A DNA stretch of 64,000 nucleotides from contig VXRL01000051.1 of the NCBI GenBank assembly GCA_009838515.1, positions 16,814 to 80,813 of the forward strand. The letters run 5' to 3'. A program made the translations under genes and the position numbers. Below, piece by piece: positions 454-22,600 of this stretch (the stretch's first letter is position 1; every line of letters begins with the position of its first letter). This stretch comes from Terriglobia bacterium (lineage in GTDB: Bacteria > Acidobacteriota > Terriglobia > Bryobacterales > UBA6623). Below the pieces are notes generated by a model that saw only the letters and a list, made by a program, of their open reading frames with translations, did not search any database and had not been told where the DNA came from.

Positions 454-543
454 TGGCGGAGGAAGAGGGATTCGAACCCCCGAGACCCTTGCGAGCCTTG
501 CGGTTTTCAAGACCGCCGCCTTCAACCACTCGGCCATTCCTCC
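454..543 (-). tRNA. tRNA-Ser (anticodon UGA)
   Basis: Reverse complement reads GGAGGAATGGCCGAGTGGTTGAAGGCGGCGGTCTTGAAAACCGC...GGGGGTTCGAATCCCTCTTCCTCCGCCA. It has a 7-bp acceptor stem (GGAGGAA/TTCCTCC), a GTTCGAATC T-loop, a long variable arm, anticodon loop CTTGAAA (anticodon TGA) and an encoded CCA. Confidence 0.9.
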
Positions 544-6121: not shown

Positions 6122-7618
6122 CTACTGGCCATCCAGATAGAAGGGACGCCGCTTGTCGCGCTGCATGCCCTCGTCGAACCGGCTGGCGATCCTGCCCAGC
6201 CGCTGGACGACTTCCGGACGGCTGGAAGCGAGATTGCGTGTTTCAGCCGGGTCGGCCGCGAGGTCGTATAGTTCCGGCTCTGCGCGCAGCCTGTGGTGGC
6301 GCTCATGGAGCTCGGGATTGTGCAGGTACCAGAGTGAGGAGGACCGTTCCGGGGGCTCGGCTTGACGCGGAAACAGCTTCCAGTTTCCAAGCCGGATAGC
6401 TTGCAGTTGGACGCCGAAGTAATAGAAAAAGGGTTCCTGCGGAAGCTCTGCCGTCTTGCCCGTGAGTAGGTCCACGATCGACCGCCCGTCGATCACCCTG
6501 TCGGCAGGGGCCTGAGCACCTCCCAGTTCGGCAAGGGTCGGCAGCAGGTCAAGAATGGAAGCCGGTTCGCTCGTCTCTACGCCAGCGGCGATCTTGCCGG
6601 GCCAGCGAAATATGCCTGGTTCCCGCATTCCCCCCTCGAACGTGTTTCCTTTGCGACCTCGGAGCCCGCCCGTGCTGCCGCCGCCGATGCGAGGCCCCCG
6701 GCGCGCGCCCGGACGTGCCGGGCCGTTGTCGGAGGTGAAGACGACTAAGGTCCGCTCGTCTAGCTCGAGATCCCGGAGCGTCCGCAGCACCTCTCCCACG
6801 CTCCAGTCCAGTTCCTCGACGGTGTCGGCGTAGAGCCCGTGAGGCGAGCGCCCCTCGAAGTCCTCCGAGGCGTAGTGCGGGTTGTGAGGGAACGTGTGAG
6901 GGAAATACAGGAAGAATGGCCGGCTTCGGTTCTCTTCAATGAAGCGCACGGCCCTTTCTGTGTAGCGCCGTGTCAGAGTGTGCTGGTTGACCGGAGCCTC
7001 CACGACTCGATCATTGTCGAGCAGCGGCAACTTCCAGAACGCGTGCTGCGGCCGGAGAACTTCGTCCGGCTCCCATTTGAGCATGTCGTTGGAATAGGGC
7101 AGCCCGAAAAAGAAGTCGAAGCCGTGGCGCTGGGCGCGGAACGGCTTGGGCCAGCCTAGATGCCACTTGCCGATCGCCGCGGTGGCGTAGCCTTCGTCTG
7201 ACAGGATCTCCGCGACGGTGATCTCGGCAGGCGCCAAGCCAGTCAATTCGGTCGGGAACAGGACATAAGGCACCCCCGCGCGGACCGGGTAGCGACCAGT
7301 CAGCAAAGACGCTCTCGACGGGCTGCAGAAGGGAGCCGTCGCGTAGAAGTCAGTGAACCGCATCCCCTCAGCCGCCATGCGGTCTAGGTTGGGGGTCCGG
7401 ATCGTGGTGGAACCGTAGGCTCCGAGATCGCCGTAGCCTAGGTCATCGGCGAAGATCACGATGAAGTTTGGCTGTTCGGCCATTGCGAAAAGTGCTGAAA
7501 GCGCTAGCAGGACTGTGAGCTGGACCAAAGCCAGGCCGGGCCGCTGCCGGCCCGCTATTCGTCGCGCAGAGGCAACTCTGGCCACAGTACTTTCCGAGTA
7601 CTGCATGGGAACCATCAT
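6122..7618 (-). CDS. Arylsulfatase-family (formylglycine-dependent) sulfatase, secreted
   Basis: NFIVIFADDLGYGDLGAYGS, then APFCSPSRASLLTGRYP (C-x-P-x-R FGly motif), GKWHLG, FTSDNGP. Hydrophobic signal LALVQLTVLLALSALFAMA. The start is uncertain (ATG 7618, 7615 or 7606, or a GTG further in); the track ORF extends to 7780. Confidence 0.85.
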   Translation of the reverse strand: MMVPMQYSESTVARVASARRIAGRQRPGLALVQLTVLLALSALFAMAEQPNFIVIFADDLGYGDLGAYGSTTIRTPNLDRMAAEGMRFTDFYATAPFCSPSRASLLTGRYPVRAGVPYVLFPTELTGLAPAEITVAEILSDEGYATAAIGKWHLGWPKPFRAQRHGFDFFFGLPYSNDMLKWEPDEVLRPQHAFWKLPLLDNDRVVEAPVNQHTLTRRYTERAVRFIEENRSRPFFLYFPHTFPHNPHYASEDFEGRSPHGLYADTVEELDWSVGEVLRTLRDLELDERTLVVFTSDNGPARPGARRGPRIGGGSTGGLRGRKGNTFEGGMREPGIFRWPGKIAAGVETSEPASILDLLPTLAELGGAQAPADRVIDGRSIVDLLTGKTAELPQEPFFYYFGVQLQAIRLGNWKLFPRQAEPPERSSSLWYLHNPELHERHHRLRAEPELYDLAADPAETRNLASSRPEVVQRLGRIASRFDEGMQRDKRRPFYLDGQ

Positions 7619-8015
7619 GCCAGACCCTGCGGCTGAGCTTCGCCACACCACCGAGCAAGGCCCCTCTCTGATCATTTCTGCATGGATTCGCACGGCCCAT
7701 AGAAGGGGCGAGCGCGAGCCGGAGACCGCCCACCTGCTAACTCGCCTGCCACCGGAGCAGTGCGCCGGCCCCCTCCACATGCCGCCCCGATTCGACTGCC
7801 TAGGTGCCCTTGCGCGAATCTCCCGAAAGCTATACCCAATGGCCTACCTTGTCCAATCATGGTCCTAAGATCCGGCCGCTCGCCTCCCGAGTTCGCTACG
7901 ATCCTGAAGACGATGATTCTCGATGACGATGCGCGCAGGGTGAACCGCGATCCAGCATTCGCCAACGCGCAGCGGCGAGCCGAATGAAGCGGGCGACGGC
8001 GGGAGGGACAGGGCA

Positions 8016-9590
8016 GTGACTGCGAGCGCCGAAGTAATTGCGAGTACCGTTGCATTGGGTCTGTTGGCAGGACCACTGGCAGCGGCCACACAACCGCTTC
8101 GGCCCCATGTGCTGCTGGTCTATACCGATGACCAAGGTTACGGAGACGTCAGCGCTCTCAACCCTGAGTCAAAATTCCAAACCCCGAGCCTAGACCGGCT
8201 GGTCCGCGAAGGCATGGCTTTCACCGACGCCCACTCCTCCGACACGGTATGCACGCCGTCGCGATACGGCCTCCTGACCGGTCGCTACAGCTGGCGGACC
8301 GGAATGAAGAGAGGCGTTATGGGAGCTGAAGGAAAGGGGCTCATCGCGGAGGGCAGAACTACGCTGGCTTCCTTGCTCCGGGACGCGGGCTACCGGACAG
8401 CGATGGTCGGCAAATGGCACTTGGGCATGACCTTCCACGGCAAGAAGGGGAGCCGCGACTGGTCTCGCCCCGTGCTCGATGGTCCCGTCGACAAGGGATT
8501 CGATTACTTCTATGGGATCCCGGCCTCGATGAACTACGGAGTGCTCACCTACATCGAAAACCGTCGCGTCCTCGATCCTCCCTCGCTATGGACCCGAAAG
8601 AAACCGAATCAGATCGCCATCGCTGACTACCGGATCACTCCTCCTTACGAACACTCCAGAGCCGGCGGAGAACTGGAGGTCGCTCCAAGCTTCGACGACC
8701 AACAGGTTCTGACCGTCTTTACCGAGCGGGCAGTCCAATGGATCGACGACTTCGCATCAGACAACTCTGACGAACCATTCTTCCTGTACTTGGCCTATAC
8801 GTCCCCGCACAAGCCCGTGATCCCGATCACAGAATTCCAAGGGAAATCGGAGGCCGGAGCTTATGGCGATTTCATGAGGGAAACGGACGCACACATCGGG
8901 AGCCTGCTCGATGCCCTGGACCGAAATGACCTGACGCGAGACACGCTCGTGCTGGTGACGAGCGATAACGGCCCTGAAACGACCTACCGAGAGCGATTGA
9001 AGCGATTTGGCCACGCGAGTGCTGGCAAGTTACGGGGCGGCAAGCGTGACCTGTACGAAGGCGGGCATCGGGTGCCATTCATCGTGCGCTGGCCGGCCGT
9101 CACGAAACCCGCGCAACGTTCCTCTGATCTCGTGTGCCAGACTGACGTGCTAGCAACCATTGCCGACGTAATAGGCCGAGAGCTCGGGCCAGATGAGGCT
9201 GAGGATAGCGTGAGCTTCCTACCGATCCTGCAGGGCGAGCAGCGTCCGCCTCGCCCGCCTGTCATTCACCACTCCGCAGCAGGCTACTTCGCCATTCGGC
9301 ACGGGCGCTGGAAGCTCAACATGATTCGGGGTTCAGGTGGAAGCCTAGCTCCCCGCTTTGTGGAGGCCAAGCCGGGCGAGCCGCAGTTCGAGCTGTACGA
9401 TCTCGCAGCCGACTTAGCCGAAACAAACGACATGACCGGTCGAGAACCGACCGTGGCCGCACGATTGCGTGAGGAAATCACCCGAATCGTCACCAGCGGC
9501 CGCAGCAATACAGGGCCAACCGTTGGCAACGATGGAGCGCAATGGTGGAAGGAGTTGACGTGGCTCGAATCGAACGCCAGCGAGCACTGA
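8016..9590 (+). CDS. Arylsulfatase-family sulfatase, secreted
   Basis: GTG start with GGGAGGG 8 nt upstream. Signal ALGLLAGPLAAA. HVLLVYTDDQGYGDVS, TVCTPSRYGLLTGRY (C-x-P-x-R), GKWHLG, VTSDNGPE, GGKRDLYEGGHRVPF. Confidence 0.9.
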   Translation: MTASAEVIASTVALGLLAGPLAAATQPLRPHVLLVYTDDQGYGDVSALNPESKFQTPSLDRLVREGMAFTDAHSSDTVCTPSRYGLLTGRYSWRTGMKRGVMGAEGKGLIAEGRTTLASLLRDAGYRTAMVGKWHLGMTFHGKKGSRDWSRPVLDGPVDKGFDYFYGIPASMNYGVLTYIENRRVLDPPSLWTRKKPNQIAIADYRITPPYEHSRAGGELEVAPSFDDQQVLTVFTERAVQWIDDFASDNSDEPFFLYLAYTSPHKPVIPITEFQGKSEAGAYGDFMRETDAHIGSLLDALDRNDLTRDTLVLVTSDNGPETTYRERLKRFGHASAGKLRGGKRDLYEGGHRVPFIVRWPAVTKPAQRSSDLVCQTDVLATIADVIGRELGPDEAEDSVSFLPILQGEQRPPRPPVIHHSAAGYFAIRHGRWKLNMIRGSGGSLAPRFVEAKPGEPQFELYDLAADLAETNDMTGREPTVAARLREEITRIVTSGRSNTGPTVGNDGAQWWKELTWLESNASEH

Positions 9591-10303: not shown

Positions 10304-10630
10304 CGCCCGGGGACGCAAGCGACTCAGTAGCGCCTACCAACGAGCGCCCTGTCTTCCGACGCGCACTCGCCGCAGAGCCCCGTTGCGTCGACTAGCTGCT
10401 GGGGGGGCATCCTAGGCCTTGCTGCTTCCACCGCCGGCGTTGCTTTTTGGGAGTCTTGGCGCTAGGGAGCCCGAACCCCTCTGGTAGGCATTCGCCGGCA
10501 CATAGAAGGCATGCAATATCATTGATGAACCATGCGACCAACTATGTCCTTGTCGCACCGCCGCCACCGATCGTTCCCCGTCGGCAGTGGGGGCTCTCAG
10601 CTCAAATCCAGCTTGTCAGATCGTCGCGAG

Positions 10631-12205
10631 ATGAGTTCAAAGCGACCCTGCGATGCCAGGAACTCGCTTCCTCGGACGGGCAACGCGTCGTTGTCGATCC
10701 TCCGGCAGTCCCCTGCTCCGCGATGGCTCGCGGTCTTGTTGGGCGTTGCTTCCATGGTTGGATGCACCCCACGAGAGGAACTCGCCCCGCCCAACTTCTT
10801 GATCCTCATGTCCGACAACCACTCTTGGAATCACCTCGGATGCTACGGCGACGCGACGGTCACGACACCGAATATCGACAAGCTGGCGGAAGAGGGCGTA
10901 CGCTTCGCGCACGCCTATTGTCCGTCCCCGTCATGCACTCCCGCTCGCGCGGCCATGCTGACCGGCCAAGACATCTGGCGGCTCGAAGAGGGCGCCAACC
11001 TTTGGGGAACGATGCCCAGTCATTTCGCGGTGTACACCGACCTGCTCGAGCAAGCCGGCTATCTCGTGGGCTACGAGGGCAAGGGCTGGGGGCCGGGAGA
11101 CCACGAGGCCGGAGGATGGACTCGGAATCCCGCCGGCCAGCGGTACGGATCATTCGAGGAGTTCTACAACGAGCGCGAGCGCGGCCAGCCCTTCTGCTAC
11201 TGGTTCAGTTCGCGGGACCCGCATCGGCCGTACCGCGCCGGCGGCGGCGAGAAAGCAGGCTACGATCTCGAATCGATCGCCGTCCCTCCCTATCTGCCAG
11301 ACGATCCCGCCGTGCGAGGCGACATCGCAGACTACTACGCCGAGATCGAGCATTTCGACGGCGAGGTTGGCGAACATCTCGGATTGCTGTCCGAGTACGG
11401 GGCTACGGAAGACACTGTTGTGATCGTCGTTAGCGACAACGGCTGGCAAATGCCCCGGGGGCTGGCAAACCTATACGATTCGGGCACGCGCCTGCCTCTG
11501 ATCGTGTCGATGCCGCAACGGTTTCCGGGCGGCCGCGTGGTGGAAGACTTTGTTAGCCTGACCGATTTCGCGCCGACGATCCTTGACTTGGCAGGCTTGC
11601 CCATTCCCGGCGATATGACTGCGAGCAGCTTTGGGCCGATCCTGGCTTCGAGCCAGCAAGGACTCGTCGATCCGCAGCGCTCGTTCGTCGTGACCGCCAG
11701 AGAACGGCATGCGTTCGTCAGACAGGGAGGCCCGGGATATCCAGCGAGGGCGCTGCGGACGCGCGACCACCTATACATCCGGAACTATGCGCCGGAGCTG
11801 TGGCCAGCGGGAGATCCGCCGCTGTACGGAGACGTGGACGCTCACATGCTCCAATTCCCCTCGCCGACGAAGATGTTCCTCTTGCAACGGCCCGACGACC
11901 CCGAGTATCGATCCCTGTTCGATCTCGCGTTCGCAAAGCGACCTGCCGAGGAGCTCTACGATCTCGCGACCGACCCATATCAGATGAATAACGTCGCTAA
12001 GGATCCTGTGTACGAATCGACCCGGGCAGAGCTGTCCGCCCGGTTGCAGGAATACCTTCGAAGCGCCGCAGATCCGCGAGAGGTCGGTGGCCCGATGAAA
12101 TGGGAACAGGCCCAATACTTCAAGGAGAGCGATTTGAGGCCTGAGCCAAGCCCAGAGGCAATCGATGCGCTCGGCCTCGACGACCGCTACAGCTATATCG
12201 ACTAG
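10631..12205 (+). CDS. Sulfatase-family protein, lipoprotein-type signal
   Basis: Trimmed to the ATG at 10631 (MSSKRP...WLAVLLGVASMVGC lipobox). NFLILMSDNHSWNHLGCYG, PSPSCTPARAAMLTGQ (C-x-P-x-R), VVSDNGW. Confidence 0.85.
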   Translation: MSSKRPCDARNSLPRTGNASLSILRQSPAPRWLAVLLGVASMVGCTPREELAPPNFLILMSDNHSWNHLGCYGDATVTTPNIDKLAEEGVRFAHAYCPSPSCTPARAAMLTGQDIWRLEEGANLWGTMPSHFAVYTDLLEQAGYLVGYEGKGWGPGDHEAGGWTRNPAGQRYGSFEEFYNERERGQPFCYWFSSRDPHRPYRAGGGEKAGYDLESIAVPPYLPDDPAVRGDIADYYAEIEHFDGEVGEHLGLLSEYGATEDTVVIVVSDNGWQMPRGLANLYDSGTRLPLIVSMPQRFPGGRVVEDFVSLTDFAPTILDLAGLPIPGDMTASSFGPILASSQQGLVDPQRSFVVTARERHAFVRQGGPGYPARALRTRDHLYIRNYAPELWPAGDPPLYGDVDAHMLQFPSPTKMFLLQRPDDPEYRSLFDLAFAKRPAEELYDLATDPYQMNNVAKDPVYESTRAELSARLQEYLRSAADPREVGGPMKWEQAQYFKESDLRPEPSPEAIDALGLDDRYSYID

Positions 12206-12311: not shown

Positions 12312-13859
12312 CTAGTTGCCGTTTCGGCGGCCAGCGGGGGCGTGCCCGCGGCCGCGCATCACCGAGAGCTCTGCCTGATCCAAGAGCCCGTCGCGGTTGG
12401 TGTCGAGTTGCCCGAAGCGCCGCTCAATTTGGGGCGGGACTTCCTCGATGCTGAGCTGGCCGTTTCCATCAGCGTCCCACCGTGCCAAGCCGCCAAGGCC
12501 CCGTGCGGGCCTGTTGCGCCCGACGTCCCGCTGCATCATGGCTTCGATCTCCGACGGTTCGAGATGGCCGTCTCCATCCCTGTCCATGCGGTCGAAATTC
12601 CGTCGCATTTGCTCGGGAAGTTCCTCGCGAGTCAACCGATTGTCTCCATCCGTATCCCTGGCCACGAGTCTCTCGACGGACCGCTGAGGGCCGAGTCCAC
12701 CGCCCGCCCCTCTTGGACCACCGCCCCGTCCGGGCCTGCCCCCTGGGCCTCGGCCTGGCCCGGTGCGGTTGAAATCCATCCGGCCTGACCTGACCCGCCC
12801 GGCATCGCGGTCTACCTCCCAGATAATCAAATACTCTTGAGTGACCGGCCTGCACCACGTATCCGTGCAAGCGAAGTAACGGAATCTCATTCCCAGCGGC
12901 TCTTGCGAATCCCCACGCTTCACGTGAACAAGGAATTCGCGCGGGTCCGCATCGGCATCTTCCTCGACCTTCGGCCCTTGCAACTTCGCCGGAGTGATCC
13001 TTACTCCCTCGGAGGCAGAGAGTTCTACGTCCATCGCCGGTGCCAAGTTGTTCCAATGCACCCCGTGAAGCGGGTCTAGAAGGAAGGCTAGATAGAGCTT
13101 CCCCTCGCCTGACCGGAGCAGGTCCTGGTCGGCCTCTGCGCGCAGCTTGGTATAGAACGGCTCGTCTGTCTTCGCAAGCTGAGGTCTTGATATCAGGGTG
13201 CGATAGGTGCCTGGCTTTTCGATGCGGGGAACCACGCCGGTCTTGGCATGCTCCGGCGCCGGCATGATTTGCATGTTTAGGTCCGATACCTCGGTTGGGT
13301 TTTCAACCGGCCCGACAAATTCTGCCAGATCCCTCCGTAACTGATCCGGGTCGCTCCAAGCGCGGGCCCGCAGAATCCGGCCCTCGGGATCGAGCACGTA
13401 TTCGGAGTTCTGGCGGTTGCCGAGCGCATGCTTCAACTCATTCGCCATGTTGTCGGCAATCCAAGCGATCTCCGACCCCAAGACTCGCCTGGCCTCCTCG
13501 ACGTGCATCAGGCGTTCCTCGAGAGTGATCGGGTTGACGTAGCCGTTCAGTTCGGGGTGCGCCAGCGCCTTGTAGAGGTAAAGGAACCGGACACCCTTGG
13601 GCGCGTAGTCGCGATAGACAGTCTCCAACCTGGGGACGTTACGAATGAAGGGCGGTCACGTCAAGCACCCGTTGACGAGGACCGTATACTGCCCTGTCAG
13701 GCTCTTCGTGTTGAATGGCTTGCCGATCGCATCGTAGACCTCAAGCGCCGGGAACGGATCTCCCGGTCCGAGCGGCATCGGCCTCTGCGACTGGGCCATG
13801 CCGACCGCTGTCGAAACTGCTAGTGCCAATACCAGAACGGCAACGCGCGAACGGTTCAT
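12312..13859 (-). CDS. Secreted deiodinase-like thioredoxin-fold protein with in-frame TGA (candidate selenocysteine, codon 68), a DsbD-N-like middle region and four C-terminal EF-hands
   Basis: ATG at 13859 with AAGGAGG upstream and signal peptide MNRSRVAVLVLALAVSTAVGMAQ. Track ORFs 13656..14114 and 12312..13628 are in the same frame, separated by one TGA (13658..13656). The read-through sequence is VLVNGCLT-U-PPFIRN...FLYLYKALAHPE. C-terminal EF-hand loops: DTDGDNRLTREE, DRDGDGHLEPSE, DADGNGQLSIEE, DTNRDGLLDQAE. 515 codons if read through. Confidence 0.65.
13621..13637 (-). promoter_or_regulatory. Candidate bacterial SECIS hairpin downstream of the in-frame TGA
   Basis: The mRNA segment GUCCCCAGGUUGGAGAC begins 18 nt after the UGA. 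GUC/GAC and CC/GG pair around a C.A mismatch and close an AGGUU loop. AC/GU can extend the stem across a bulged U. Judged by hand only. Confidence 0.35.
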
Positions 13860-14111
13860 TGCAAGCGATCCCTCCTTGCAGTTAACACCAACCCGGCCGT
13901 CGGCTTCGTGAAGAGCCGGTAAAACCTTGCCGCTGCGTATACCAATCCCAAGGGATCTGGCATGAAATGCATGATGCACCGCCCCCAGCTCCTGAATGTC
14001 AGCCGGAGCCGGGCACGTATGCCCGCGGCCCTGGGCCGGGTTGCGGACGCGCGAGGAAACAGCCTTGGCAGCAAAGAGAGCCCTCCCCGCATAGCGATTT
14101 TCCACCTCGAG

Positions 14112-14398
14112 CACGTGAGGCCGGAGGATGGACTCGCGATCCCGCCAGCTAGCGATGCGGATCGTTCGAGCAATTCTACGACCGGCGCGAGTGCGGCCAG
14201 CCCCTCTGCTACTGGTTCAGTTCGCCGGACCCGCGCCTCCTGCGGCGAGCGAGCAGGTGGCAATCCCGAATCGATCGCCGTCCCTCCGTACCTGTCAAAC
14301 GACCCCGCCGTGCAGGGTGACATCGCAGGCTACTACGCCGAGATCGAGCACTTCGATGGCGAGGTTGGTGAACATCTCGGACAGCTGGACGCAGGGCG
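14112..14398 (+). pseudogene. Decayed internal fragment of a sulfatase gene (paralogous to 11102..11392)
   Basis: About 290 nt align by eye to the interior of the sulfatase at 10631..12205. Example: GAGGCCGGAGGATGGACTCG...CAGCCC(C/T)TCTGCTACTGGTTCAGTTCGC...GAATCGATCGCCGTCCCTCC...TACTACGCCGAGATCGAGCA(C/T)TTCGA(T/C)GGCGAGGTTGG. The peptide ESIAVPPYLSNDPAVQGDIAGYYAEIEHFDGEVGEHLGQL compares with ESIAVPPYLPDDPAVRGDIADYYAEIEHFDGEVGEHLGLL. The copy carries indels and an in-frame TAG, and lacks both gene ends. Confidence 0.7.
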
Positions 14399-14519: not shown

Positions 14520-17500
14520 CTAGAACTCGTAGCGCAAGGCGAACTGGATCTGTCGCGGCTCCAGCTGTAGCCTGAAGATCCGGGCTACGGAGCCTGACGC
14601 CAGCGTGTCGTTTCTGTTGCTGCCGGGCTTGCGGAAGTGAGTCTTGTTGAACATGTTGAAGAACTCGCCCCGCAAGATCAGCCTGTGCCCTTCGGCCACT
14701 TGGAACTGCTTCGCGATCGAGACGTCCCAAGAATTGATACCTTGCGCCTCGACGATGTTAGCCCCCGAATTGCCGTAGTTAAACTGCTGCGGAAACTGGA
14801 AGCAGTCCACCTTGTACCACTGCTCGGCGGTCTTGGGTCCGTTGTTCGGATCGCACGTCACATCGGGCCTCTGGTAAGACCGCCCGACATTGGCGATATC
14901 CCTGCCCGACAGCACGCCCACCGGCGGCCCGGTGTTGAACCGAGTGAACCCCTCGATCGCCCAGCCGCCCAGGAACGCGTCAGCGGCGGCGTTCAAGTCT
15001 CCGCCCCAGCGACGGCCCCGTCCGAACGGCAGGTCCCACTGGTAGGCGATCTGGAACACGTGCTGCAGGTCCCAGCTCGACCTTGACCAATCGTTCCGGA
15101 TGTTGAACGGATCCTGCGTCTTCCATTCGGCGAGCGAGGACTGCTCGTCCATGGCCTTGGACCAGGTGTAGTTCATTCGAAATCCGAATCCGCTCCCGAA
15201 GCGCTTGTTCATCTCGACCTGGAGGGCGTTGTACAGGCCTCCGAAACGATTGAACCCGCCGTCAACATTGCCGAAGTCCGGCATCAACCGACGAGGCTGA
15301 ATCGGGCCCGGCCCCGGGGTGAGGGGCGTGTTGACCGCCGTGTAACCGATCTGCTTCCGGCTGGAGGAGCCTACATAGCCGACATTCAGCGAAAGTTGAT
15401 CGACCAACTCGCGCTGGATGAAGAAGTTCCACTGGGCCGAGTAAGGCGAGCGATTGGTCGGCTGCTGCGGCCAGCCGCCGATGGCCGCGGTGGAGGAGTA
15501 CGGCGGTCCCGGATTGTCCGCAAAGAAGGTCGGCACGGGATTCTCTGGATTTACGGCGTTAACCGTGGCGACCTGCTGCGGAGTGTAGGGCCAGAACTTG
15601 CGCAAGTCCTGCAATTCCTGAACGAACGTCGAGTTGTAGAACACGCCCACACCAGTGCGCACCACTGTCTTGTCGTCGACCTGGTAGGCGATTCCCGCGC
15701 GCGGGCCGATGTTGTTGCGGTCCGGGAACATCAGCGCCCGCGTAGTTCCCAGCCTCTTCGCCGGCTGGTTCCGCTCGCCGGTCTCCGGCTCGATCTCAGG
15801 GTTGACGGTGGACCACATCAGCCGCCCGAGATTCCCGGTCGCCGGGTTAGGAGTAATCCAGAGATTGCCCAGCTGGTCTGTGGTGTCGTAGGGAGGGTTG
15901 TTGTACTCGTACCGCATCCCTATGTTCACGGTTAGCTTGGAGGTGACCCGCCAGTCGTCTTGGAAGAAAAACTGCCAAGCATTGATTCGACCATTCGTGA
16001 TGGTCTCGCCAGTCGAGCGCCGGAACTGCCTAGGGGTGCCGAGCAGCATCGACGCTGTGCTGAACCCGGAACCCGGATCGTTGTAGAGCGAGGTGAGGTC
16101 GCCGTTGAACCACAGGTTCCCGTTCATCGGGTTGGACGTGTTTGTGTAAAAGTGCCGACGGCTGTAATTGACCCCGAACTTGATCGAGTGATTGCCGGCA
16201 TTCGTCGCATAGTTGGAAATGAACTGCCAGACCTTGTCCCCTGTGTTCGTTCCACCGCCGCCCGCGCTGAACTCGCCGTCAGAACTCATGTTCGGAATCG
16301 GCTCGCACAGCACCTCCCGTTGGAACATCTGAATTCCGGTTTGGTCAAGAAAGTCGCCCCGGTTGATCTTGGAATTCAACGTGCAGTTCGGATTCCACGG
16401 AGCGTTGTAGCCAAACCGGACCTCCAAGATCGAGGACGGATTGACTAGGCGCGTCCACTGGGCGGACAAGTTGCGCACGTCGAAGTCGTTCTCGCGAGAG
16501 AGGTACGGGTTGGAACTCGGGGAGAAGGTGGAAACGTTCTGGTGCAGATAGCGCACGTTGAACGAGTCCTTGCCCCCGGTATTGTGGTCCCCGCGCATCA
16601 CGACGAAATCCCGGTCATTCGACGCCTTGGTGGTGTTGCTGTAGTTCTGAGTCAGCTTGCCCGGGATATTCGGAAGCGGGATCATGATGTCCAAGTACGT
16701 CGTGATCGCCGGGTGATGCATCGACTGTGGAATCGCATTGTTCTGGAATTGCTCACGGACAATGTTTCCGTCGGCGTCCGCCGTGCCGGTAAACGGATCG
16801 TAGATCCTCTGGGCCAGCTCGGAGAAGTCTCCCCTGCGCTGGAGGTCGGTGGGGAAGTTCGCGAGCGCGTTGTTGCCGCGCCGGCGCGCGAAGCCCTCGT
16901 AATTCACGAACCAGAAGGTGCTGTCCCGGAGGCCAGGAACCGGGCCGCCGAAAGCCGCGCCGTACTGATTCTGTGCGAATGCGACCTTGCCTGTGCCGGA
17001 GCGGTTGGCGAAGAAGTCATTGGCATCGAAATTATCGTTGCGCACGTACCAGTAGGCCGAACCGTGCAGATCCCGGGAACCGGACTTGATCGCGATGTTG
17101 ACGTTAGCTCCCATGGAACGCCCGAACTCCGCGTTGTTGTTGGTGGCGACGCGGAACTCTTGGATGGCGTCCATCGGCGGAGAGCCGCCGGGAGAGTTCA
17201 TCATCATCATGTTGTTGTCAACGCCGTCCATCGTGAAGTTGTTGTCTTGCGGACGGGCACCGTTGACCGAAATCAGGAACGTCCCAGACTGCGTGCCTCT
17301 CGACTGGCTGTAGGTCATGCCGCTGGTTCCGGGCATCATCAGAATCAGGCGTGTGTAGTTGCGCCCGTTCACCGGGATGCGCTCGATCTCAGTGGTCGTG
17401 ACGGTGCCACCCACCGAGGCGTCCTGTGTCTGTAGCACCGGGATCTGGCCGGTGACCTCAACCGTCTCGGTCACTTGGCCGAGTTCGAGAGATAGATCGA

Positions 17501-17819
17501 CCTTGACCGTCGCTGCGACCTCCACGACGATTCCAGTACGCAATCGCGTCTTGAACCCTTCGCTCGAGGCAGCAACATCGTATGTGCCCGGCTGCACCGG
17601 ATACGCACGATAGGCTCCGCGTTCGTTGGTCGATATCTCCCTCTGCACGCCAGTGCTGAGGTTCGTGACCGTCACGTTGGCTCCAGGCACCAAGGCGCCG
17701 CTCTCATCGGTGACATCTCCAACGATCGTGGCGTTGGTTGTCTGCGCATCAGCGCCTGTCGGGGCCAGCATCAAGACCAGCGCCGCCAGGACGAGCGCGC
17801 CCTGCTTCCAAACTTTCAT
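14520..17819 (-). CDS. TonB-dependent outer-membrane receptor with N-terminal carboxypeptidase-regulatory-like (CarboxypepD_reg) domain
   Basis: 1099 aa, AAGGAG RBS. Signal MKVWKQGALVLAALVLMLAPTGADA. TIVGDVTDESGALVPGANVTVTNLSTGVQREISTNERGAYRAYPVQPGTYDV is the CarboxypepD_reg beta-sandwich, followed by plug-like and long beta-barrel regions. The C-terminal ...FALRYEF ends in the aromatic residue typical of OMPs. Confidence 0.9.
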   Translation of the reverse strand: MKVWKQGALVLAALVLMLAPTGADAQTTNATIVGDVTDESGALVPGANVTVTNLSTGVQREISTNERGAYRAYPVQPGTYDVAASSEGFKTRLRTGIVVEVAATVKVDLSLELGQVTETVEVTGQIPVLQTQDASVGGTVTTTEIERIPVNGRNYTRLILMMPGTSGMTYSQSRGTQSGTFLISVNGARPQDNNFTMDGVDNNMMMMNSPGGSPPMDAIQEFRVATNNNAEFGRSMGANVNIAIKSGSRDLHGSAYWYVRNDNFDANDFFANRSGTGKVAFAQNQYGAAFGGPVPGLRDSTFWFVNYEGFARRRGNNALANFPTDLQRRGDFSELAQRIYDPFTGTADADGNIVREQFQNNAIPQSMHHPAITTYLDIMIPLPNIPGKLTQNYSNTTKASNDRDFVVMRGDHNTGGKDSFNVRYLHQNVSTFSPSSNPYLSRENDFDVRNLSAQWTRLVNPSSILEVRFGYNAPWNPNCTLNSKINRGDFLDQTGIQMFQREVLCEPIPNMSSDGEFSAGGGGTNTGDKVWQFISNYATNAGNHSIKFGVNYSRRHFYTNTSNPMNGNLWFNGDLTSLYNDPGSGFSTASMLLGTPRQFRRSTGETITNGRINAWQFFFQDDWRVTSKLTVNIGMRYEYNNPPYDTTDQLGNLWITPNPATGNLGRLMWSTVNPEIEPETGERNQPAKRLGTTRALMFPDRNNIGPRAGIAYQVDDKTVVRTGVGVFYNSTFVQELQDLRKFWPYTPQQVATVNAVNPENPVPTFFADNPGPPYSSTAAIGGWPQQPTNRSPYSAQWNFFIQRELVDQLSLNVGYVGSSSRKQIGYTAVNTPLTPGPGPIQPRRLMPDFGNVDGGFNRFGGLYNALQVEMNKRFGSGFGFRMNYTWSKAMDEQSSLAEWKTQDPFNIRNDWSRSSWDLQHVFQIAYQWDLPFGRGRRWGGDLNAAADAFLGGWAIEGFTRFNTGPPVGVLSGRDIANVGRSYQRPDVTCDPNNGPKTAEQWYKVDCFQFPQQFNYGNSGANIVEAQGINSWDVSIAKQFQVAEGHRLILRGEFFNMFNKTHFRKPGSNRNDTLASGSVARIFRLQLEPRQIQFALRYEF

Positions 17820-19447: not shown

Positions 19448-19668
19448 TGGGGTGCGAGGCTCCTTTCGGCGCGAAGCGCGATCAGGTAACAGCTTATCGC
19501 GGATCGAGCGCCGTGGCGGAGGCGCGCTCTGGGGCGGGCCGCTCTGCGACAACCGTCCGGACGGGCAACACACCGCGGCACAAAATTCCCATAAAGTATT
19601 AGGGTCGGCGGCCACGCTTGCCGGCCGCCGGCATGGTCCGTGGGCACGACCAGAACACAGGAGGCCCA

Positions 19669-22600
19669 GTGCGAACCCCGCGAGACACGGCAACGATTCT
19701 GCGCGATCCGCGATTCTCCCGCGGAACGTTGAGGGGAGCGATCATTGGGCTCGCTCTGGCAGGGGTGCCGGCATCGCTCGGCGCCGCGTCGGCCGAGCAG
19801 ATTGAGTTCTTCGAGAGCAAGGTGCGGCCGCTCTTGGCAGAGCACTGCTACGCCTGCCACAGCGCCAAGATCGAGACGCCCTTCGCCGGCCTGCGGCTTG
19901 ACAGCCGCGAGGCGATCCTCGCGGGCGGCGACTCCGGGCCGGCCATCGTGGCCGGTAATCCCACCCAAAGCCTTCTCATCAAGGCTCTCAAGGGCGAGCC
20001 CGTGCTCATGCCGCCGGGCGGCGGGCTGCCGAACGCAGCGACGAAGACTCTGGCGGAATGGATCCGGATGGGCGCTCCATGGCCCGAGGAACGCATGTCC
20101 AACGAGGCGGAACCAGGTGCCTTCGATCTGGCGCAACGCAAGCGAGCCCACTGGGCGTGGCAGCCTGTCCAACAGGCCGACCCCCCGCAAGTCAGGAAGC
20201 GCCGCTGGCCAGTAAACCCGGTGGATAGCTTTGTGTTGGCCGGGCTCGAGCAGCACGGCATGTCGCCGGCCGAGCCTGCCGACCGCCGCACATTGATCCG
20301 GCGGCTTTCCTACGACTTGACAGGCATGCCTCCAACGCCCGACGAGACGGCTCACTTCACACAGGACGATGATCCCGATGCCTACCAGAAGCTGGTGCGG
20401 CGGCTGCTGGATTCTGAGCGCTTCGGAGAGCACTGGGCGCGGCACTGGATGGACTTGGTTCGCTATGCCGACTCGCACGGCAGCGAAGGCGATCCCGCCA
20501 TACCGAAAGCCTGGCACTACCGCGACTACCTCGTTCGCGCCCTGAATGCCGACGTGCCGTATGACCAACTCGTCCGGGAGCACCTCGCCGGCGACCTACT
20601 CGATGAGCCACGGATTTCCCCGGGACGCGGAATCAACGAATCGATCCTAGGCACGGCGCACCTACGACTGGTCGAACTCGGGTACCAGCCCGTCGACCCA
20701 TGGGAAGAGCGCGTCAAGTGGACCGACAACCAGATCGACGTCTTCTCCAAGGCCTTCCTAGGACTCACCGTTGCCTGCGCTCGATGCCACGACCACAAGT
20801 TCGACGCGATCAGCCAGCAGGACTACTACTCGCTCTTCGGCGCTCTTTACGGCGCCCGGCCGACCATGCGGGCCGTCGACTCTCCGGTCGCGTTGCAACT
20901 GCACTCGAACCGTCTGCGGAAACTCAAGGATCAGATCCGCGAGAGGGTCGCCGGCCAGTGGATCGCAGATGCGGCCTCACTCCCGACCCGCCTAGAGCGC
21001 GCTGACGGAAACGCTGTTCGCACCGCTCTGGAGGAAGCTGCCTGCGACGACGCGAGCCCCCTGCACGCCTTTTTACAGCTTGGCGACCTGCGAGGTGATC
21101 GCTTGTGGGAAGCGGTGGGGGATCTGAGAGCGGACTGGCACAGTCGTATGGCAGCCCGCAAAGCGTCTAACAAGCAGAACTTCCAAGAAATCTGGGACTT
21201 GTCCGGCGCAGACTACGACGAATGGGTCAGCCACGGCGCAGGCGTCGGAGACACGCCATCGGCTCCGGGGGAGTTTCGCGTGGCCCTGGAAGGAAATACA
21301 GTCCTGCACGGCATCTATCCGGGCGGGGTCTACACGCACCTGCTGTCGAGCAAGCATGCCGGCGTCATGCAGTCGCCCCGCTTCACGATCGACACCGACT
21401 ATGTCAGCGTTCGCACGATGGGACACGACTTTAGCTTCGCTCGACTCATCGTGGAGAACTATTCCCTGCCCCTGGGCGGCATCTACGACCAGCGCTACAG
21501 CCCGAGGGCCGACACGATGCGGTGGTGGCAGTTCAAGACCGAGTTTTGGAAAGGGTTCACCGGGTATATCGAGTTCGCGACCCGCGAAGACGCCACCAAC
21601 TTCGTCCTAGACTCGATCGACCGTGCCAAAGACCCTCGGCCCGAGCGACCGACTCACGGCAGGTCTGGAATCGGCGCGGCCGCGGCAGCCTTCCACAACG
21701 GCAAGCGCCAGCCGAAATCGACGACCGAGCCCATTCTCTACCTCTTGGCGGCGGAACCTTCGGGGTCTGCAAACAGTTTCGGGAACATCGTGGCCGAACG
21801 GCTGACCGCTGCCGCGACCGCATGGCGGGGCGGCACCGCTGACCAGCAGCAGGCAAGCTTCTTGGACTATTTCGCCAGACGCGGGCTCGTGGCTACGTCG
21901 ATTGACGAGATCGAGGGCGTCGACGAGCTAGTCGCGGAATACAGGCGGCTCGAGAGCGAGATCGCAGTGCCGCAGAGATTCCCCGGCGTCGTCGAAGAGA
22001 GCGCGCCCGACCATCCCCTGCTGGTCCGCGGCGACCCCCGCAAGCCCGCAGACCCGGTCCAGCGGAGATTCCTCGCAGCCATCGGGGGTGACCGCTATGC
22101 CGATCCGGCGGCGGTCCGCCGCCGCCTGGCGGAAGACGTCACGAGAACGGACAACCCCCTCACGGCCAGGGTCATGGCAAACCGCGTCTGGCAACGTGTC
22201 TTCGGACGCGGCATCGTGGCGACACCGGATAACTTCGGCGTCCTTGGCGATGCGCCGTCGCACCCCGAGCTGCTGGACTATGTCGCGACTCGCTTCGTGG
22301 CGGATGGTTGGTCTATCAAGCGCCTCGTGGAGCTGCTGGTCACATCGCGCACCTACCGGATGAGCAGTACAGCCTCGGGGAGGGCGCTGGAGCGCGATCC
22401 CTCAAACTCCTTACTGCAACACATGCCCGTGCGCAGGCTCGAGGCGGAGGCTATCCGGGACACGCTGCTGGCCGTGTCCGGCCAGCTGGACAGCTCGATG
22501 TACGGCCCCCCTCCACCGTCGCGCAACCGCTACGACGAGTACGAAGGCCCCGGATCATCCATCTATGGCGATGACCGCCGGAGCGTATACCAGGAAATTC

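What the first reader, a model, noticed from the sequence alone, without database searches (positions are those of the whole stretch)
12312..13859. In-frame TGA at the redox position of a deiodinase-like thioredoxin-fold protein: candidate secreted selenoprotein
On the minus strand, ORFs 14114..13656 and 13628..12312 share one reading frame. Only a single TGA (13658..13656) and nine sense codons separate them. Read-through gives MNRSRVAVLVLALAVSTAVGMAQ...TGQYTVLVNGCLT-[TGA]-PPFIRNVPRLETVYRDYAPKGVRFLYLYKALAHPELNGY.

The stop falls exactly on the second position of a C-x-x-[U] redox motif. The pattern T-U-P-P-F, followed about 30 residues later by FL..Y...AHP, is the active-site signature of iodothyronine deiodinases (FGS[AC]TUPPF ... 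AHPSDGW).

If the TGA were a true stop, two things would follow. A 67-aa signal-peptide fragment would end one residue before its catalytic centre. The large downstream ORF would have no ATG, RBS or export signal, because it opens at an internal TTG. Bacterial deiodinase-like proteins are, to my knowledge, mostly Cys forms without an assigned function.
Basis: partly seen in the sequence, partly recalled or inferred. Interest (0 to 1): 0.85.

Follow-up and report, generated by a model that had tools for sequence, protein, structure and literature searches.

The report
Exported deiodinase-like selenoprotein gene
The in-frame TGA almost certainly encodes selenocysteine in the active site of an exported enzyme related to thyroid-hormone deiodinases; the family is widespread in Acidobacteriota, Planctomycetota and Verrucomicrobiota, but public annotation cuts it off at the TGA.

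Summary
On the minus strand one frame runs from ATG 13859 to TAG 12312 and is broken only by TGA 13658..13656, inside G-C65-L-T-[TGA68]-P-P-F.

The TGA very probably encodes selenocysteine:
- 78 of 79 related genomes from three phyla have TGA at this codon; one has TGT.
- Full-length homologues carry Cys there.
- The frame is under protein-level selection on both sides of the TGA.
- A hairpin 17 nt downstream (13638..13620) shows covariation and a collapse of synonymous variation, and it is absent from the Cys form.

The thioredoxin-fold domain is closest to mouse deiodinases Dio3 and Dio2, and it shares their TUPPF, Y...AHP, LE[ED]R and DxMxN motifs. It falls below the Pfam and NCBIfam family cut-offs and lacks part of the deiodinase proton relay.

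After the thioredoxin fold come an Ig-like domain with an invariant CxxxxC hairpin and four EF hands. The Ig-like domain looks like the DsbD N-terminal domain, but only weakly.

Bacterial "deiodinase-like" selenoproteins have been known since 2005. This fused, exported form has no specific model in the libraries searched, so I rate it a new variant of a known kind. The substrate is unknown. The selenocysteine machinery could not be checked, because none of it lies in the window.

The parts
12312..13859 (-). Complete coding sequence of the selenoprotein (515 aa with Sec at residue 68)
   Evidence: tblastn runs across the TGA in 79 loci.
13871..13877 (-). Shine-Dalgarno-like AAGGAGG, 11 nt upstream of the ATG
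   Evidence: Read directly from the sequence.
13791..13859 (-). Predicted Sec-type signal peptide, MNRSRVAVLVLALAVSTAVGMAQ (residues 1-23)
   Evidence: Read from the sequence: basic n-region, hydrophobic core, G-M-A-Q c-region. No predictor was available, so this is inferred.
13290..13772 (-). Thioredoxin-fold, deiodinase-like catalytic domain (about residues 30-190)
   Evidence: NCBIfam NF038285 E 3.8e-13. Profile versus PDB: Dio3 E 2.7e-9 and Dio2 E 3.6e-6. AF2 model of Cys homologue P0090, pLDDT 83. Foldseek matches ResA, Dio and Prx folds.
13665..13667 (-). Cys65 codon, three residues before Sec (C-x-x-U); candidate resolving cysteine
   Evidence: Conserved in all 79 distinct TGA-bearing sequences. 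Conserved in at least 90% of alignment A5.
13656..13658 (-). In-frame TGA = selenocysteine codon 68
   Evidence: TGA in 78 of 79 loci and TGT in L080. Cys in full-length homologues.
13620..13638 (-). SECIS-like hairpin C-GUCCCCA-GGU-UGGAGAC-U. Loop GGU at 13630..13628. The stem starts 17 nt after the UGA
   Evidence: RNAalifold predicts it independently. 89% of cells are paired against 30-56% when the partners are slid. Pair 21-39 covaries (C-G, G-C, U-A). Synonymous entropy collapses at codons +7 to +11. Absent from the Cys form L080.
13554..13565 (-). L-A-H101-P motif, equivalent to deiodinase A-H202-P
   Evidence: L, H and P are invariant in family alignment A5. Aligned to Dio3 EEAHP.
12780..13247 (-). 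Ig-like beta-sandwich domain, possibly related to the DsbD N-terminal domain (about residues 205-360)
   Evidence: AF2 model of the window's own sequence, pLDDT 89. Pfam DsbD_N is sub-threshold in 13 of 53 homologues, best 22.5 bits against a cut-off of 25. Foldseek to nDsbD gives TM 0.52-0.54 at E about 0.02.
12852..12869 (-). C331-T-D-T-W-C336: invariant cysteine pair on a beta-hairpin
   Evidence: Invariant in A3, A6 and A7. The strands flank the pair in the model. hhalign places it on nDsbD C103/C109 at low probability.
12669..12779 (-). Gly/Arg/Pro-rich linker, predicted disordered
   Evidence: Sequence. pLDDT below 50 in the equivalent stretch of the P0090 model.
12345..12668 (-). Four EF-hand calcium-binding loops (residues 402-413, 426-437, 462-473, 486-497)
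   Evidence: Pfam EF-hand_6 8.5e-15, EF-hand_7 9.1e-13, EF-hand_1 and EF-hand_5, all above cut-off. Loop positions.
12312..12314 (-). True stop codon, TAG

Best explanation
This is one gene for a 515-residue exported selenoprotein.

SHOWN:
- The TGA at 13658..13656 sits where homologues have a redox cysteine.
- That TGA is conserved in 78 of 79 related genomes from three phyla.
- It is followed by a conserved, covarying hairpin that fits the loop and spacing rules of the bacterial SECIS model.
- The catalytic domain is a thioredoxin fold whose nearest solved relatives are the iodothyronine deiodinases.

INFERRED, recoding: SelB-tRNA(Sec) binds the hairpin and inserts selenocysteine at codon 68.

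INFERRED, location: the signal peptide sends the protein to the periplasm.

INFERRED, chemistry:
1. The Sec68 selenolate lies at the N-terminus of the first helix, the position of the nucleophilic Cys in CxxC proteins and of Sec in deiodinases. It attacks an oxidised or electrophilic substrate, which could be a peroxide, an organohalogen or a disulfide.
2. The resulting Se-OH, Se-X or Se-S species is resolved by Cys65 into a selenenylsulfide.
3. That bond is reduced by the C331/C336 dithiol of the fused Ig-like domain, which resembles the DsbD N-terminal domain.
4. The Ig-like domain is recharged by an envelope DsbD/CcdA-type reducing pathway.

The four EF hands bind Ca2+ and are accessory; 17 of 53 homologues lack them. 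The protein has exactly three Cys and one Sec; the Sec-site TGA, Cys331 and Cys336 are invariant and Cys65 is conserved in all Sec forms (at least 90% of the wider family alignment A5), which fits such a relay. The substrate is not known.
For: Frame and motif.

Cys/Sec alignment: GCLTCPPF or GCLTCPVF in P0081, P0090 and P0103. At least 25 further Cys-form clusters.

Truncated calls: 116 of the 120 best database hits start just after the TGA.

Codon census: 78 loci with TGA, 1 with TGT, spanning Bryobacterales, Thermoanaerobaculia, Marinacidobacterales, Pirellulaceae, Fuerstiella, Roseibacillus and Akkermansiaceae.

Purifying selection upstream of the TGA: V(-8) is 99% conserved with synonymous entropy 1.83; L(-2) is 100% conserved with 6 codons in use.

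SECIS:
- RNAalifold finds the hairpin on its own.
- Pair 21-39 is C-G 44, G-C 7, U-A 4. Pair 23-37 is U-A, U-G or C-G. Pair 24-36 is C-G or U-A.
- G29 is invariant as the first loop base.
- 25 nt separate the UGA from the loop. The loop and spacing meet the published model (PMC13188914).
- Synonymous entropy falls at the stem codons: GTC 74 of 76 (0.18), CCC 55 of 55 (0), GAG 78 of 79 (0.10); Leu TTG/CTG 0.67. Four-fold sites elsewhere give about 1.1-1.9.
- The Cys form L080 has no hairpin (-2.2 kcal/mol). Cys forms vary in the residues the stem encodes.

Deiodinase relation.

Domain models. DsbD_N hints. EF hands.

TGA is a normal stop elsewhere in the window.
Against: - No selA, selB, selD or tRNA-Sec lies in the 64-kb window or in the 80 fetched flanks. 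The Sec machinery of this genome is therefore unverified.
- The window's own hairpin is weak: -5.2 kcal/mol, pair probabilities about 0.3, and not part of the MFE of the 48-nt segment. It carries a C.A mismatch and misses the model's -7.5 kcal/mol criterion. An 81-nt fold is no more stable than shuffles (z 0.40).
- Only two stem pairs show single double-change events in the strict count. The region is coding, so part of the conservation is protein constraint.
- No Rfam family matches.
- Pfam T4_deiodinase, AhpC-TSA and Redoxin, and NCBIfam NF038285, are all below their cut-offs.
- The DsbD_N assignment is weak: there is no PDB sequence hit with the domain profile, and hhalign probability is 7.8%.
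- The electron relay and the substrate are inference only.
- No gene neighbour is conserved across phyla that could point to a pathway.
Confidence: 0.82

Rival explanations
1. The TGA is a true stop. The locus is a pseudogene, or a split gene that makes a 67-residue exported peptide plus a separate cytoplasmic protein starting at TTG 13628.
For: Public gene callers annotate it this way: 116 of the 120 best hits start at M/L-ETVYRDY. TGA is the usual stop in this genome. The window's hairpin is thermodynamically weak. Same-frame ORF pairs split by one TGA are common by chance here, with 50 in the window.
Against: TGA is kept at exactly this codon in 78 of 79 genomes down to about 50% protein identity. 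The upstream 67 codons remain under protein-level selection in the same frame. Cys occupies the site in full-length homologues. A split would cut a thioredoxin fold one residue before its active-site helix. The downstream piece would have no signal peptide.
Confidence: 0.03
2. The UGA is read through by a near-cognate or suppressor tRNA, which inserts Trp, Cys or Arg. Selenocysteine is not involved, and the hairpin only slows termination.
For: The Sec machinery was not found in the window. The hairpin does not meet the energy criterion in this copy.
Against: The site is a catalytic Cys position in homologues. The hairpin has the G[G/U] apical loop and the 16-37 nt spacing of SelB-dependent elements. 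Acidobacteria are recorded as having selenoproteins, and planctomycetes related to the other carriers have full Sec-insertion gene sets (PMC1794560; PMC4807772). Conservation of TGA over TGC/TGT in 78 genomes is hard to explain if the product were simply Cys.
Confidence: 0.04
3. Function rival A: the enzyme is a periplasmic selenoperoxidase working like a peroxiredoxin or GPx. It reduces H2O2 or organic hydroperoxides.
For: Weak AhpC-TSA and Redoxin matches (E 2.9e-4 and 6.3e-4; up to 1.3e-6 in Cys forms). Foldseek matches many Prx and ResA structures. [quoted passage not shown]
Against: The Prx PxxxTxxC signature is absent: Cys replaces the Thr and there is no Pro at -7 (sequence). By profile, deiodinases outrank every Prx.
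Confidence: 0.3
4. Function rival B: the enzyme is a reductive dehalogenase acting on iodinated or brominated phenolic compounds, using the deiodinase half-reaction in which the selenolate abstracts the halogen as X+.
For: Nearest solved relatives are Dio3 and Dio2. Shared motifs are T-U-P-P-F, Y...A-H-P, L-E-[ED]-R and D-x-M-x-N. Thr169, Tyr197 and His202 of Dio3 have equivalents here.
Against: Glu200 is Leu here. His219 falls in a segment this family lacks. The distal Cys239 is not conserved (alignments; residue roles from PMC11592359). No bacterial deiodinase-like protein has a demonstrated activity (PMC1088965). The family also occurs in groundwater and pelagic lineages.
Confidence: 0.15

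Closest known systems
Vertebrate iodothyronine deiodinases Dio1-3 (Pfam PF00837; structures 4TR3, 9H48)
   Same: Both have a thioredoxin fold with selenocysteine in T-U-P-P-F at the start of helix alpha1. The motifs Y-x-x-x-A-H-P, L-E-[ED]-R and D-x-M-x-N lie in the same order. Dio3 and Dio2 are the best PDB hits of the family profile (E 2.7e-9 and 3.6e-6). Foldseek gives TM 0.69-0.75 over about 176 columns.
   Different: The match is below the Pfam cut-off. The Dio insertion loop is shorter, Glu200 is Leu, His219 is absent and the distal Cys239 is absent. Cys lies at U-3, not U-2. A cleavable signal peptide replaces the N-terminal membrane anchor. The SECIS is bacterial and inside the coding sequence, not in a 3'-UTR. 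The Ig-like domain and EF-hand tail are extra.
Bacterial 'deiodinase-like protein' selenoprotein family (Sargasso Sea 2005, GOS 2008; listed in the 2026 inventory) and NCBIfam NF038285 'deiodinase family protein'
   Same: All are bacterial, deiodinase-related, have both Sec and Cys forms, and have no known function (PMC1088965; PMC2398784). NF038285 matches at E 3.8e-13.
   Different: The NF038285 score is 49.6 bits against a cut-off of 250, and only profile positions 201-320 of 347 are matched. The inventory lists its representative with the motif UxxC, whereas this family is C-x-x-U-P-P-F. None of the papers read here mentions a DsbD-like or EF-hand fusion (term searches). I could not obtain the published sequences to compare them directly.
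DsbD N-terminal (alpha) domain and its thioredoxin-fold partners; DipZ C-terminal region (2HYX)
   Same: An Ig-like beta-sandwich carries a Cys pair on a beta-hairpin next to a thioredoxin-fold redox domain in the cell envelope. The two-domain DipZ fragment is the top Foldseek hit of the whole model (E 2.5e-10). nDsbD structures are among the best hits of the isolated domain.
   Different: There is no membrane electron-transport domain in this protein. The domain order is thioredoxin fold then sandwich. The cysteine spacing is CxxxxC, against CxxxxxC in nDsbD. All sequence evidence is sub-threshold. The overall superposition on DipZ is poor (rmsd 12-14 Å), so the domain arrangement differs.
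TlpA/ResA-type and peroxiredoxin-type periplasmic thiol oxidoreductases, including their known Sec-containing relatives
   Same: They share the fold class and an exported location. Sec aligns with the first Cys of ResA's CxxC. Foldseek gives TM 0.8 to ResA.
   Different: The second CxxC cysteine is Phe here, and the partner Cys is upstream at -3. The Prx Thr/Pro/Arg signature is absent. Profile similarity is weaker than to deiodinases.

Membership tests
Bacterial selenoprotein gene (UGA recoded as Sec) | The in-frame TGA aligns with Cys in homologues | tested here: met
   L080 has TGT.
Bacterial selenoprotein gene (UGA recoded as Sec) | The TGA and the coding frame are conserved on both sides in orthologues of other species | tested here: met
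   78 of 79 loci. Codon statistics.
Bacterial selenoprotein gene (UGA recoded as Sec) | bSECIS geometry: 3-9 nt apical loop, G in the first two loop positions, 16-37 nt between UGA and loop, stem of at least 4 bp (model quoted in PMC13188914) | tested here: met
   Loop G-[G/U]-[U/C] with an invariant first G. 25 nt spacing. 7-8 bp stem with one C.A mismatch.
Bacterial selenoprotein gene (UGA recoded as Sec) | bSECIS folding energy of -7.5 kcal/mol or lower | tested here: not met
   The window copy gives -5.2 kcal/mol. 42 of 70 family members meet the criterion.
Bacterial selenoprotein gene (UGA recoded as Sec) | selA, selB, selC (tRNA-Sec) and selD are present in the genome | not testable with these tools
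   None found in the 64-kb window or in the 80 flanks.
Bacterial selenoprotein gene (UGA recoded as Sec) | Selenium is incorporated into the protein | not testable with these tools
   Needs 75Se labelling or mass spectrometry.
Iodothyronine deiodinase family (Pfam PF00837) | Score above the Pfam gathering threshold | tested here: not met
   14.4 bits against 27, E 0.024. Best homologue E 1.3e-4.
Iodothyronine deiodinase family (Pfam PF00837) | Sec in the T-U-P-P-F motif at the N-terminus of helix alpha1 of a thioredoxin fold | tested here: met
   Alignment to 4TR3 FGSCTCPPF. The helix starts right after the equivalent Cys88 in the P0090 model.
Iodothyronine deiodinase family (Pfam PF00837) | Dio insertion loop with the proton relay Tyr197, Glu200, His202 and His219 (Dio3 numbering; PMC11592359) | tested here: not met
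   Tyr and His202 equivalents are conserved. Glu200 is Leu. His219 lies in a segment absent here, and the loop is about 6-8 residues shorter.
Iodothyronine deiodinase family (Pfam PF00837) | N-terminal transmembrane anchor | tested here: not met
   The N-terminus looks like a cleavable signal peptide (sequence).
Iodothyronine deiodinase family (Pfam PF00837) | Homodimer | not tested
   Dimerisation was not examined here.
Iodothyronine deiodinase family (Pfam PF00837) | Reductive dehalogenation activity | not testable with these tools
   Needs an enzyme assay.
NCBIfam NF038285 deiodinase_rel (hypothetical equivalog) | Whole-protein score of at least 250 bits | tested here: not met
   49.6 bits, E 3.8e-13, covering only the thioredoxin-fold part of the profile.
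DsbD N-terminal domain (Pfam PF11412) | Score above the gathering threshold (25 bits) | tested here: not met
   The window domain has no hit. 13 of 53 homologues match at E of 1 or below, best 22.5 bits, covering profile positions 16-113 of 119.
DsbD N-terminal domain (Pfam PF11412) | Ig-like beta-sandwich with the redox Cys pair on a beta-hairpin | tested here: inconclusive
   The sandwich and the hairpin position are seen in the model. Foldseek to nDsbD gives E 0.016-0.07 and TM 0.52-0.54, similar to NEAT and adaptin-ear domains. The profile finds nothing in the PDB.
EF-hand calcium-binding domain | Canonical 12-residue loops; Pfam score above cut-off | tested here: met
   EF-hand_6 53.5 bits, EF-hand_7 48.8 bits. 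Four DxDxDG-type loops.
Peroxiredoxin (AhpC/TSA, PF00578) | Gathering threshold and the PxxxTxxC active-site signature | tested here: not met
   21.2 bits against 26. The motif here is V-N-G-C-L-T-U, with no Pro at -7 and Cys in place of Thr at -3.

The most novel reading that the evidence does not exclude
This would be the founding example of an unrecognised, widespread family of periplasmic selenoenzymes. In it, a deiodinase-type Sec active site is wired within one polypeptide to a DsbD-alpha-like electron-relay domain and a calcium-binding tail. Its natural reaction would be reductive dehalogenation of iodinated or brominated phenolic metabolites, for example halotyrosine derivatives in marine host-associated habitats. 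That would make it a bacterial functional counterpart, and perhaps an evolutionary source, of the chemistry of thyroid-hormone deiodinases.
Probability: 0.12. Interest if true: 0.8.

Novelty: new variant of a known kind. Interest (0 to 1): 0.55.

Why it matters
1. Annotation. Hundreds of database entries for this family are N-terminally truncated 'hypothetical' or 'EF-hand domain' proteins. They lack their signal peptide and their catalytic residue. No NCBIfam or Pfam model captures the family. A model with a Sec rule would correct annotation in Bryobacterales, Pirellulaceae, Verrucomicrobiota and related lineages.

2. Biology. The function of bacterial deiodinase-like proteins has been open since 2005. 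This subfamily offers a tractable case:
- it has exactly three Cys and one Sec;
- natural Cys, Ser and non-redox variants exist for comparison;
- the fused putative electron-relay domain suggests where the reducing equivalents come from.

3. Recoding. The hairpin is encoded by residues V-P/S-x-L-E-T, so it visibly constrains the protein sequence of Sec forms relative to Cys forms. The conserved C.A mismatch in most copies is a testable feature of SelB recognition outside the Proteobacteria.

Tried and rejected
- Folding 81 nt downstream of the TGA as a single sequence gave no signal (z 0.40). Only the comparative analysis revealed the hairpin.
- Rfam gave nothing, at gathering thresholds over the window and at E of 10 or below over 13540..13700.
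Nothing was found. This is uninformative, because so little of each genome was covered.
- I looked for other selenoprotein genes in the window. Of the 50 mechanical candidates, none except this one was seen to combine a redox motif at the TGA with a frame supported as a gene (motif and ORF-length scan only).
- Gene neighbourhood: nothing is conserved across phyla. Sulfatases lie nearby in 23 of 81 neighbourhoods compared (80 loci plus the window), which I attribute to how many sulfatase genes these genomes carry (my own estimate, not measured). The upstream outer-membrane-barrel gene is shared only with 9 other loci (10 neighbourhoods including the window).
- I recalled that the Dictyostelium DIF dechlorinase was a deiodinase homologue. 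The paper shows it is a GST and that the deiodinase homologue is not the dechlorinase (PMC3205185). I dropped this lead.
- A profile of the middle domain against PDB sequences gave no hit.
I therefore modelled the natural Cys homologue P0090 (52% identical) and the window's own middle domain.
- Lanmodulin-like lanthanide binding by the EF hands: the NCBIfam LanM match is far below cut-off (36.5 against 135 bits). The loops also lack the Pro at position 2 that I recall as characteristic of LanM (from memory).
Full report
**1. The observation**

On the minus strand a single reading frame starts at ATG 13859, preceded by AAGGAGG at 13877..13871, and ends at TAG 12314..12312. One in-frame TGA at 13658..13656 (codon 68) interrupts it. 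Read through, it gives 515 residues:
- a typical signal peptide (MNRSRVAVLVLALAVSTAVGMAQ);
- ...VNG-C65-L-T-U68-P-P-F-I-R-N-V-P-R-L-E-T-V-Y-R-D-Y...F-L-Y-L-Y-K-A-L-A-H101-P;
- a middle region with C331-T-D-T-W-C336;
- a Gly/Arg-rich linker;
- four EF-hand loops.

The bare pattern is not remarkable. The window is 64% G+C and holds 50 same-frame ORF pairs split by one TGA at comparable length thresholds. TGA is a normal stop here: 22 of the 51 largest ORFs end in it, including Pfam-verified genes. So there is no genome-wide reassignment of TGA.

**2. Is the TGA a selenocysteine codon?**

Database proteins. A search of the protein collection with the read-through sequence found 886 relatives. Of the best 120, 116 are gene calls that begin just after the TGA position, typically at M/L-ETVYRDY or MRNVPSLETVYRDY. 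Three are full length with Cys at the site (GCLTCPPF or GCLTCPVF) and one has Ser.

Genomes. A scan of one genome per species returned 158 confirmed loci, of which 80 were kept. In these, tblastn with the read-through protein runs straight across the stop. The codon at the site is TGA in 78 loci and TGT in one (L080). L023 is partial and does not cover the site. Carriers include:
- Acidobacteriota: Bryobacterales, Solibacteraceae, Thermoanaerobaculia, Marinacidobacterales;
- Planctomycetota: Pirellulaceae, Rubripirellula, Rhodopirellula, Fuerstiella;
- Verrucomicrobiota: Roseibacillus, Akkermansiaceae.

Protein identity falls to about 50% across this set. That excludes an assembly error and a lineage-specific pseudogene.

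Selection. Upstream of the TGA the frame is under protein-level selection. Val at -8 is 99% conserved using four codons, Gly at -4 is 100% conserved using four codons, and Leu at -2 is 100% conserved using six codons.

**3. The recoding signal**

Seventy sequences from the TGA to +54 align without gaps.

RNAalifold predicts, without guidance, a hairpin at alignment columns 21-39. This is window 13638..13620, C-GUCCCCA-GGU-UGGAGAC-U. On the named structure 89% of cells are paired, against 30-56% when the 3' partners are slid by 1-3 columns.

Variation in the stem pairs:

| Pair | Observed pairs |
|---|---|
| 21-39 (two wobble positions) | C-G 44, G-C 7, U-A 4, in several unrelated lineages; broken in 15 sequences, including the window |
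| 23-37 | U-A 61, U-G 8, C-G 1 |
| 24-36 | C-G 68, U-G 1, U-A 1 |
| 25-35 | C.A mismatch in 49 distinct sequences, U-A in 20 |

The one U-A at pair 24-36 arises from a pair of synonymous changes, GUC to GUU and GAG to GAA.

The first loop base, G29, is invariant and is followed by G or U. Twenty-five nucleotides separate the UGA from the loop.

These features meet the loop, guanosine and spacing rules of the published bacterial SECIS model (PMC13188914).

The strongest single result is the collapse of synonymous variation exactly over the stem:

| Codon in the stem | Usage | Synonymous entropy |
|---|---|---|
| Val | GTC 74 of 76 | 0.18 |
| Pro | CCC 55 of 55 | 0 |
| Ser | AGT 38 of 38 | 0 |
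| Leu | TTG 62, CTG 13 | 0.67 |
| Glu | GAG 78 of 79 | 0.10 |
| Four-fold sites elsewhere in the gene | - | about 1.1-1.9 |
| Other Glu codons | - | about 1.0 |

The Cys form L080 has no such hairpin (-2.2 kcal/mol). Cys-form proteins also vary freely in the residues that the stem encodes.

Caveats:
- The window's own hairpin is weak. It folds at -5.2 kcal/mol, has pair probabilities of about 0.3 and is not in the MFE of the 48-nt segment. It therefore misses the model's -7.5 kcal/mol criterion, which 42 of 70 relatives meet.
- A single-sequence fold of 81 nt is no better than shuffles.
- Rfam has no matching family.

**4. Selenocysteine machinery**

No tRNA-Sec, selA, selB or selD is present in the window or in the 80 flanks. 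Only 64 kb of this genome is available, so this test remains open.

Published surveys record selenoproteins in Acidobacteria (PMC1794560). They also record complete Sec-insertion gene sets in some planctomycetes, including a Rhodopirellula (PMC4807772).

**5. What the protein is**

Catalytic domain, sequence evidence:
- Pfam gives only sub-threshold matches: AhpC-TSA 2.9e-4, Redoxin 6.3e-4 and T4_deiodinase 0.024.
- NCBIfam's 'deiodinase family protein' model NF038285 matches at E 3.8e-13. The score is 49.6 bits against a cut-off of 250, and the match covers only the thioredoxin-fold part of the profile.
- A profile of 35 family members (Sec and Cys forms, A5) finds mouse Dio3 (4TR3, E 2.7e-9) and Dio2 (9H48, E 3.6e-6) as its best solved relatives. 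These are ahead of every peroxiredoxin and every ResA/TlpA protein.
- The alignment matches G-C-L-T-U-P-P-F to F-G-S-C-T-U-P-P-F, F-x-Y-L-Y-x-x-L-A-H-P to F-L-I-I-Y-I-E-E-A-H-P, T-L-E-E-R to S-L-E-D-R, and A-D-x-M-x-N to L-D-T-M-A-N.

Catalytic domain, deiodinase catalytic residues (roles from PMC11592359):
- Conserved here: Thr169, Tyr197 and His202.
- Not conserved: Glu200 is Leu, His219 falls in a loop segment this family lacks, and the distal Cys239 is absent.
- Ser167 is replaced by the conserved Cys65.

Catalytic domain, structure:
- An AlphaFold model of the natural Cys homologue P0090 (52% identical; mean pLDDT 83, pTM 0.72) shows a thioredoxin fold. The Sec-equivalent residue lies at the N-cap of the first long helix.
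- HMMER alignments to ResA-type proteins place Sec on the first, nucleophilic Cys of CxxC and Phe on the second.
- Foldseek matches ResA (TM about 0.8) and Dio2/Dio3 (TM 0.69-0.75 over about 176 columns). Its top hit is the two-domain C-terminal fragment of M. tuberculosis DipZ, a thioredoxin-like domain plus a beta-sandwich, but with a poor overall superposition.

Middle domain:
- A model of the window's own residues 185-365 (pLDDT 89) is an Ig-like beta-sandwich. The invariant Cys pair lies at the turn between the last two strands.
- Pfam DsbD_N matches 13 of 53 homologues over almost its full length. All matches are below the cut-off; the best is 22.5 bits against 25.
- Foldseek lists DsbD-alpha structures (TM 0.52-0.54) among weak hits that also include NEAT and adaptin-ear domains.
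- The domain profile finds nothing in the PDB by sequence.
- I treat 'DsbD-alpha-like' as suggestive, not established.

Tail. The four EF hands are solid. They are present in 36 of 53 homologues.

Wider family. The superfamily is large: 836 clusters at 50% identity. It contains Sec forms, many Cys forms (GCLTCPxF) and non-redox variants (GDLTNPDF, GELTDPDF) embedded in proteins of 700-830 residues.

**6. How it most likely works**

Shown: the gene structure, the Cys/Sec equivalence, the conserved recoding hairpin, the deiodinase-like thioredoxin fold and the domain architecture.

Inferred:
1. SelB-dependent insertion of Sec at codon 68.
2. Export by the signal peptide.
3. Nucleophilic attack by the Sec68 selenolate on an oxidised or electrophilic substrate.
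4. Resolution by Cys65 to a selenenylsulfide.
5. Re-reduction by the C331/C336 pair of the fused Ig-like domain.
6. Recharging of that domain by an envelope DsbD/CcdA-type pathway.

The whole protein has exactly three Cys and one Sec; the Sec-site TGA, Cys331 and Cys336 are invariant and Cys65 is conserved in all Sec forms (at least 90% of alignment A5), which fits such a relay.

The substrate is open. I rate a peroxidase-type reaction at about 0.3 and a deiodinase-type dehalogenation at about 0.15. The remainder is disulfide or other reductase chemistry.

No conserved neighbour helps. The gene stands alone across phyla.

**7. Comparison with what is known, and novelty**

Bacterial 'deiodinase-like' selenoproteins were reported from the Sargasso Sea in 2005 (4 Sec and 6 Cys sequences, function unknown; PMC1088965). 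They were reported again from GOS (22 sequences; PMC2398784). They appear in the 2026 inventory of 119 prokaryotic selenoprotein families, with the motif UxxC (PMC13188914).

The present family is related to these but differs in four ways:
- it fails the PF00837 and NF038285 cut-offs;
- its motif is C-x-x-U-P-P-F;
- it has its own architecture;
- no NCBIfam model in the library searched names it, and the source names given for homologues are 'hypothetical protein' or 'EF-hand domain-containing protein' on truncated calls.

I could not obtain the published representative sequences, so I cannot exclude that some of them belong to this subfamily.

Verdict: a real selenoprotein gene, and a new variant of a known kind.

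**8. Scores**

- Confidence that this is a genuine Sec-decoding gene of a deiodinase-like family: about 0.9 or higher.
- Confidence in the full statement, including the inferred relay: 0.82.
- Interest: 0.55. It is a solid, widespread and mis-annotated selenoprotein family with a suggestive built-in redox partner. It is not a new principle.

Noticed in passing
L004:1280-2055 and L007:1260-2056: Two closed Bryobacterales genomes carry a second, frameshifted partial copy of the gene about 4.7 kb upstream of the intact one. The copy still has the TGA and the hairpin sequence. It looks like a decaying tandem duplicate. The window has only one copy.
   Followed up: partly
L040:6001-7091: In this MAG the orthologue has an extra in-frame stop or frameshift after ...AHPELNG, and tblastn splits it into two pieces. 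It is either a pseudogene or an assembly error.
   Followed up: no
P0113; P0217, P0220, P0227, P0228 (protein ids): Natural variants exist at the catalytic site. One has Ser in place of Sec (GCLTSPPF). Others have non-redox pairs (GDLTNPDF, GELTDPDF, GDLTDPGF); those at or near full length are 681-794 residues and carry the module in their C-terminal half (P0227 is 550 residues). These point to a non-catalytic or binding use of the same fold.
   Followed up: no
window 13620-13638 (and alignment A2, columns 25/35): The hairpin keeps a C.A mismatch in 49 of 69 distinct sequences and has a U-A pair in the other 20. The weaker form is the majority. It may be a recognition feature, not a defect.
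   Followed up: partly
window 6122-7780(-), 8016-9590(+), 10532-12205(+), 32454-34292(+), 42793-44217(+), 58664-60082(+): There are six sulfatase genes in 64 kb, three of them next to the selenoprotein gene. Sulfatases also lie near the gene in 23 of 81 neighbourhoods compared (80 loci plus the window). I read this as the high sulfatase content of these lineages and not as a functional link.
   Followed up: partly
window 19618-24418 (+): A gene pair of the type named in Pfam after planctomycetes (PSCyt1/PSCyt2/PSD1 followed by DUF1501) sits in a genome whose nearest relatives are Bryobacterales.
   Followed up: no
window 14520-17819 (-): A 1099-residue outer-membrane beta-barrel protein (CarboxypepD_reg plus OMP_b-brl_4) lies directly upstream on the same strand, 660 nt away. 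This arrangement is shared with only 9 other loci (10 neighbourhoods including the window).
   Followed up: partly
window 1667-2263 (+): An ankyrin-repeat protein (Ank_2 2.4e-33). From memory, such eukaryote-like proteins are common in host-associated bacteria. Several related MAG names (APA_bin, RHO3_bin, SB0661_bin) look like sponge-microbiome bins. Neither point was verified.
   Followed up: no
window 60161-61228 (+): A C-5 cytosine DNA methyltransferase gene (DNA_methylase 8.5e-47). The Pfam scans of the neighbouring ORFs showed no restriction enzyme.
   Followed up: no
window 454-543 (-) and 44981-45069 (-): tRNA-Ser(TGA) and tRNA-Leu(CAG) are the only tRNA genes in the window. There is no tRNA-Sec.
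   Followed up: yes
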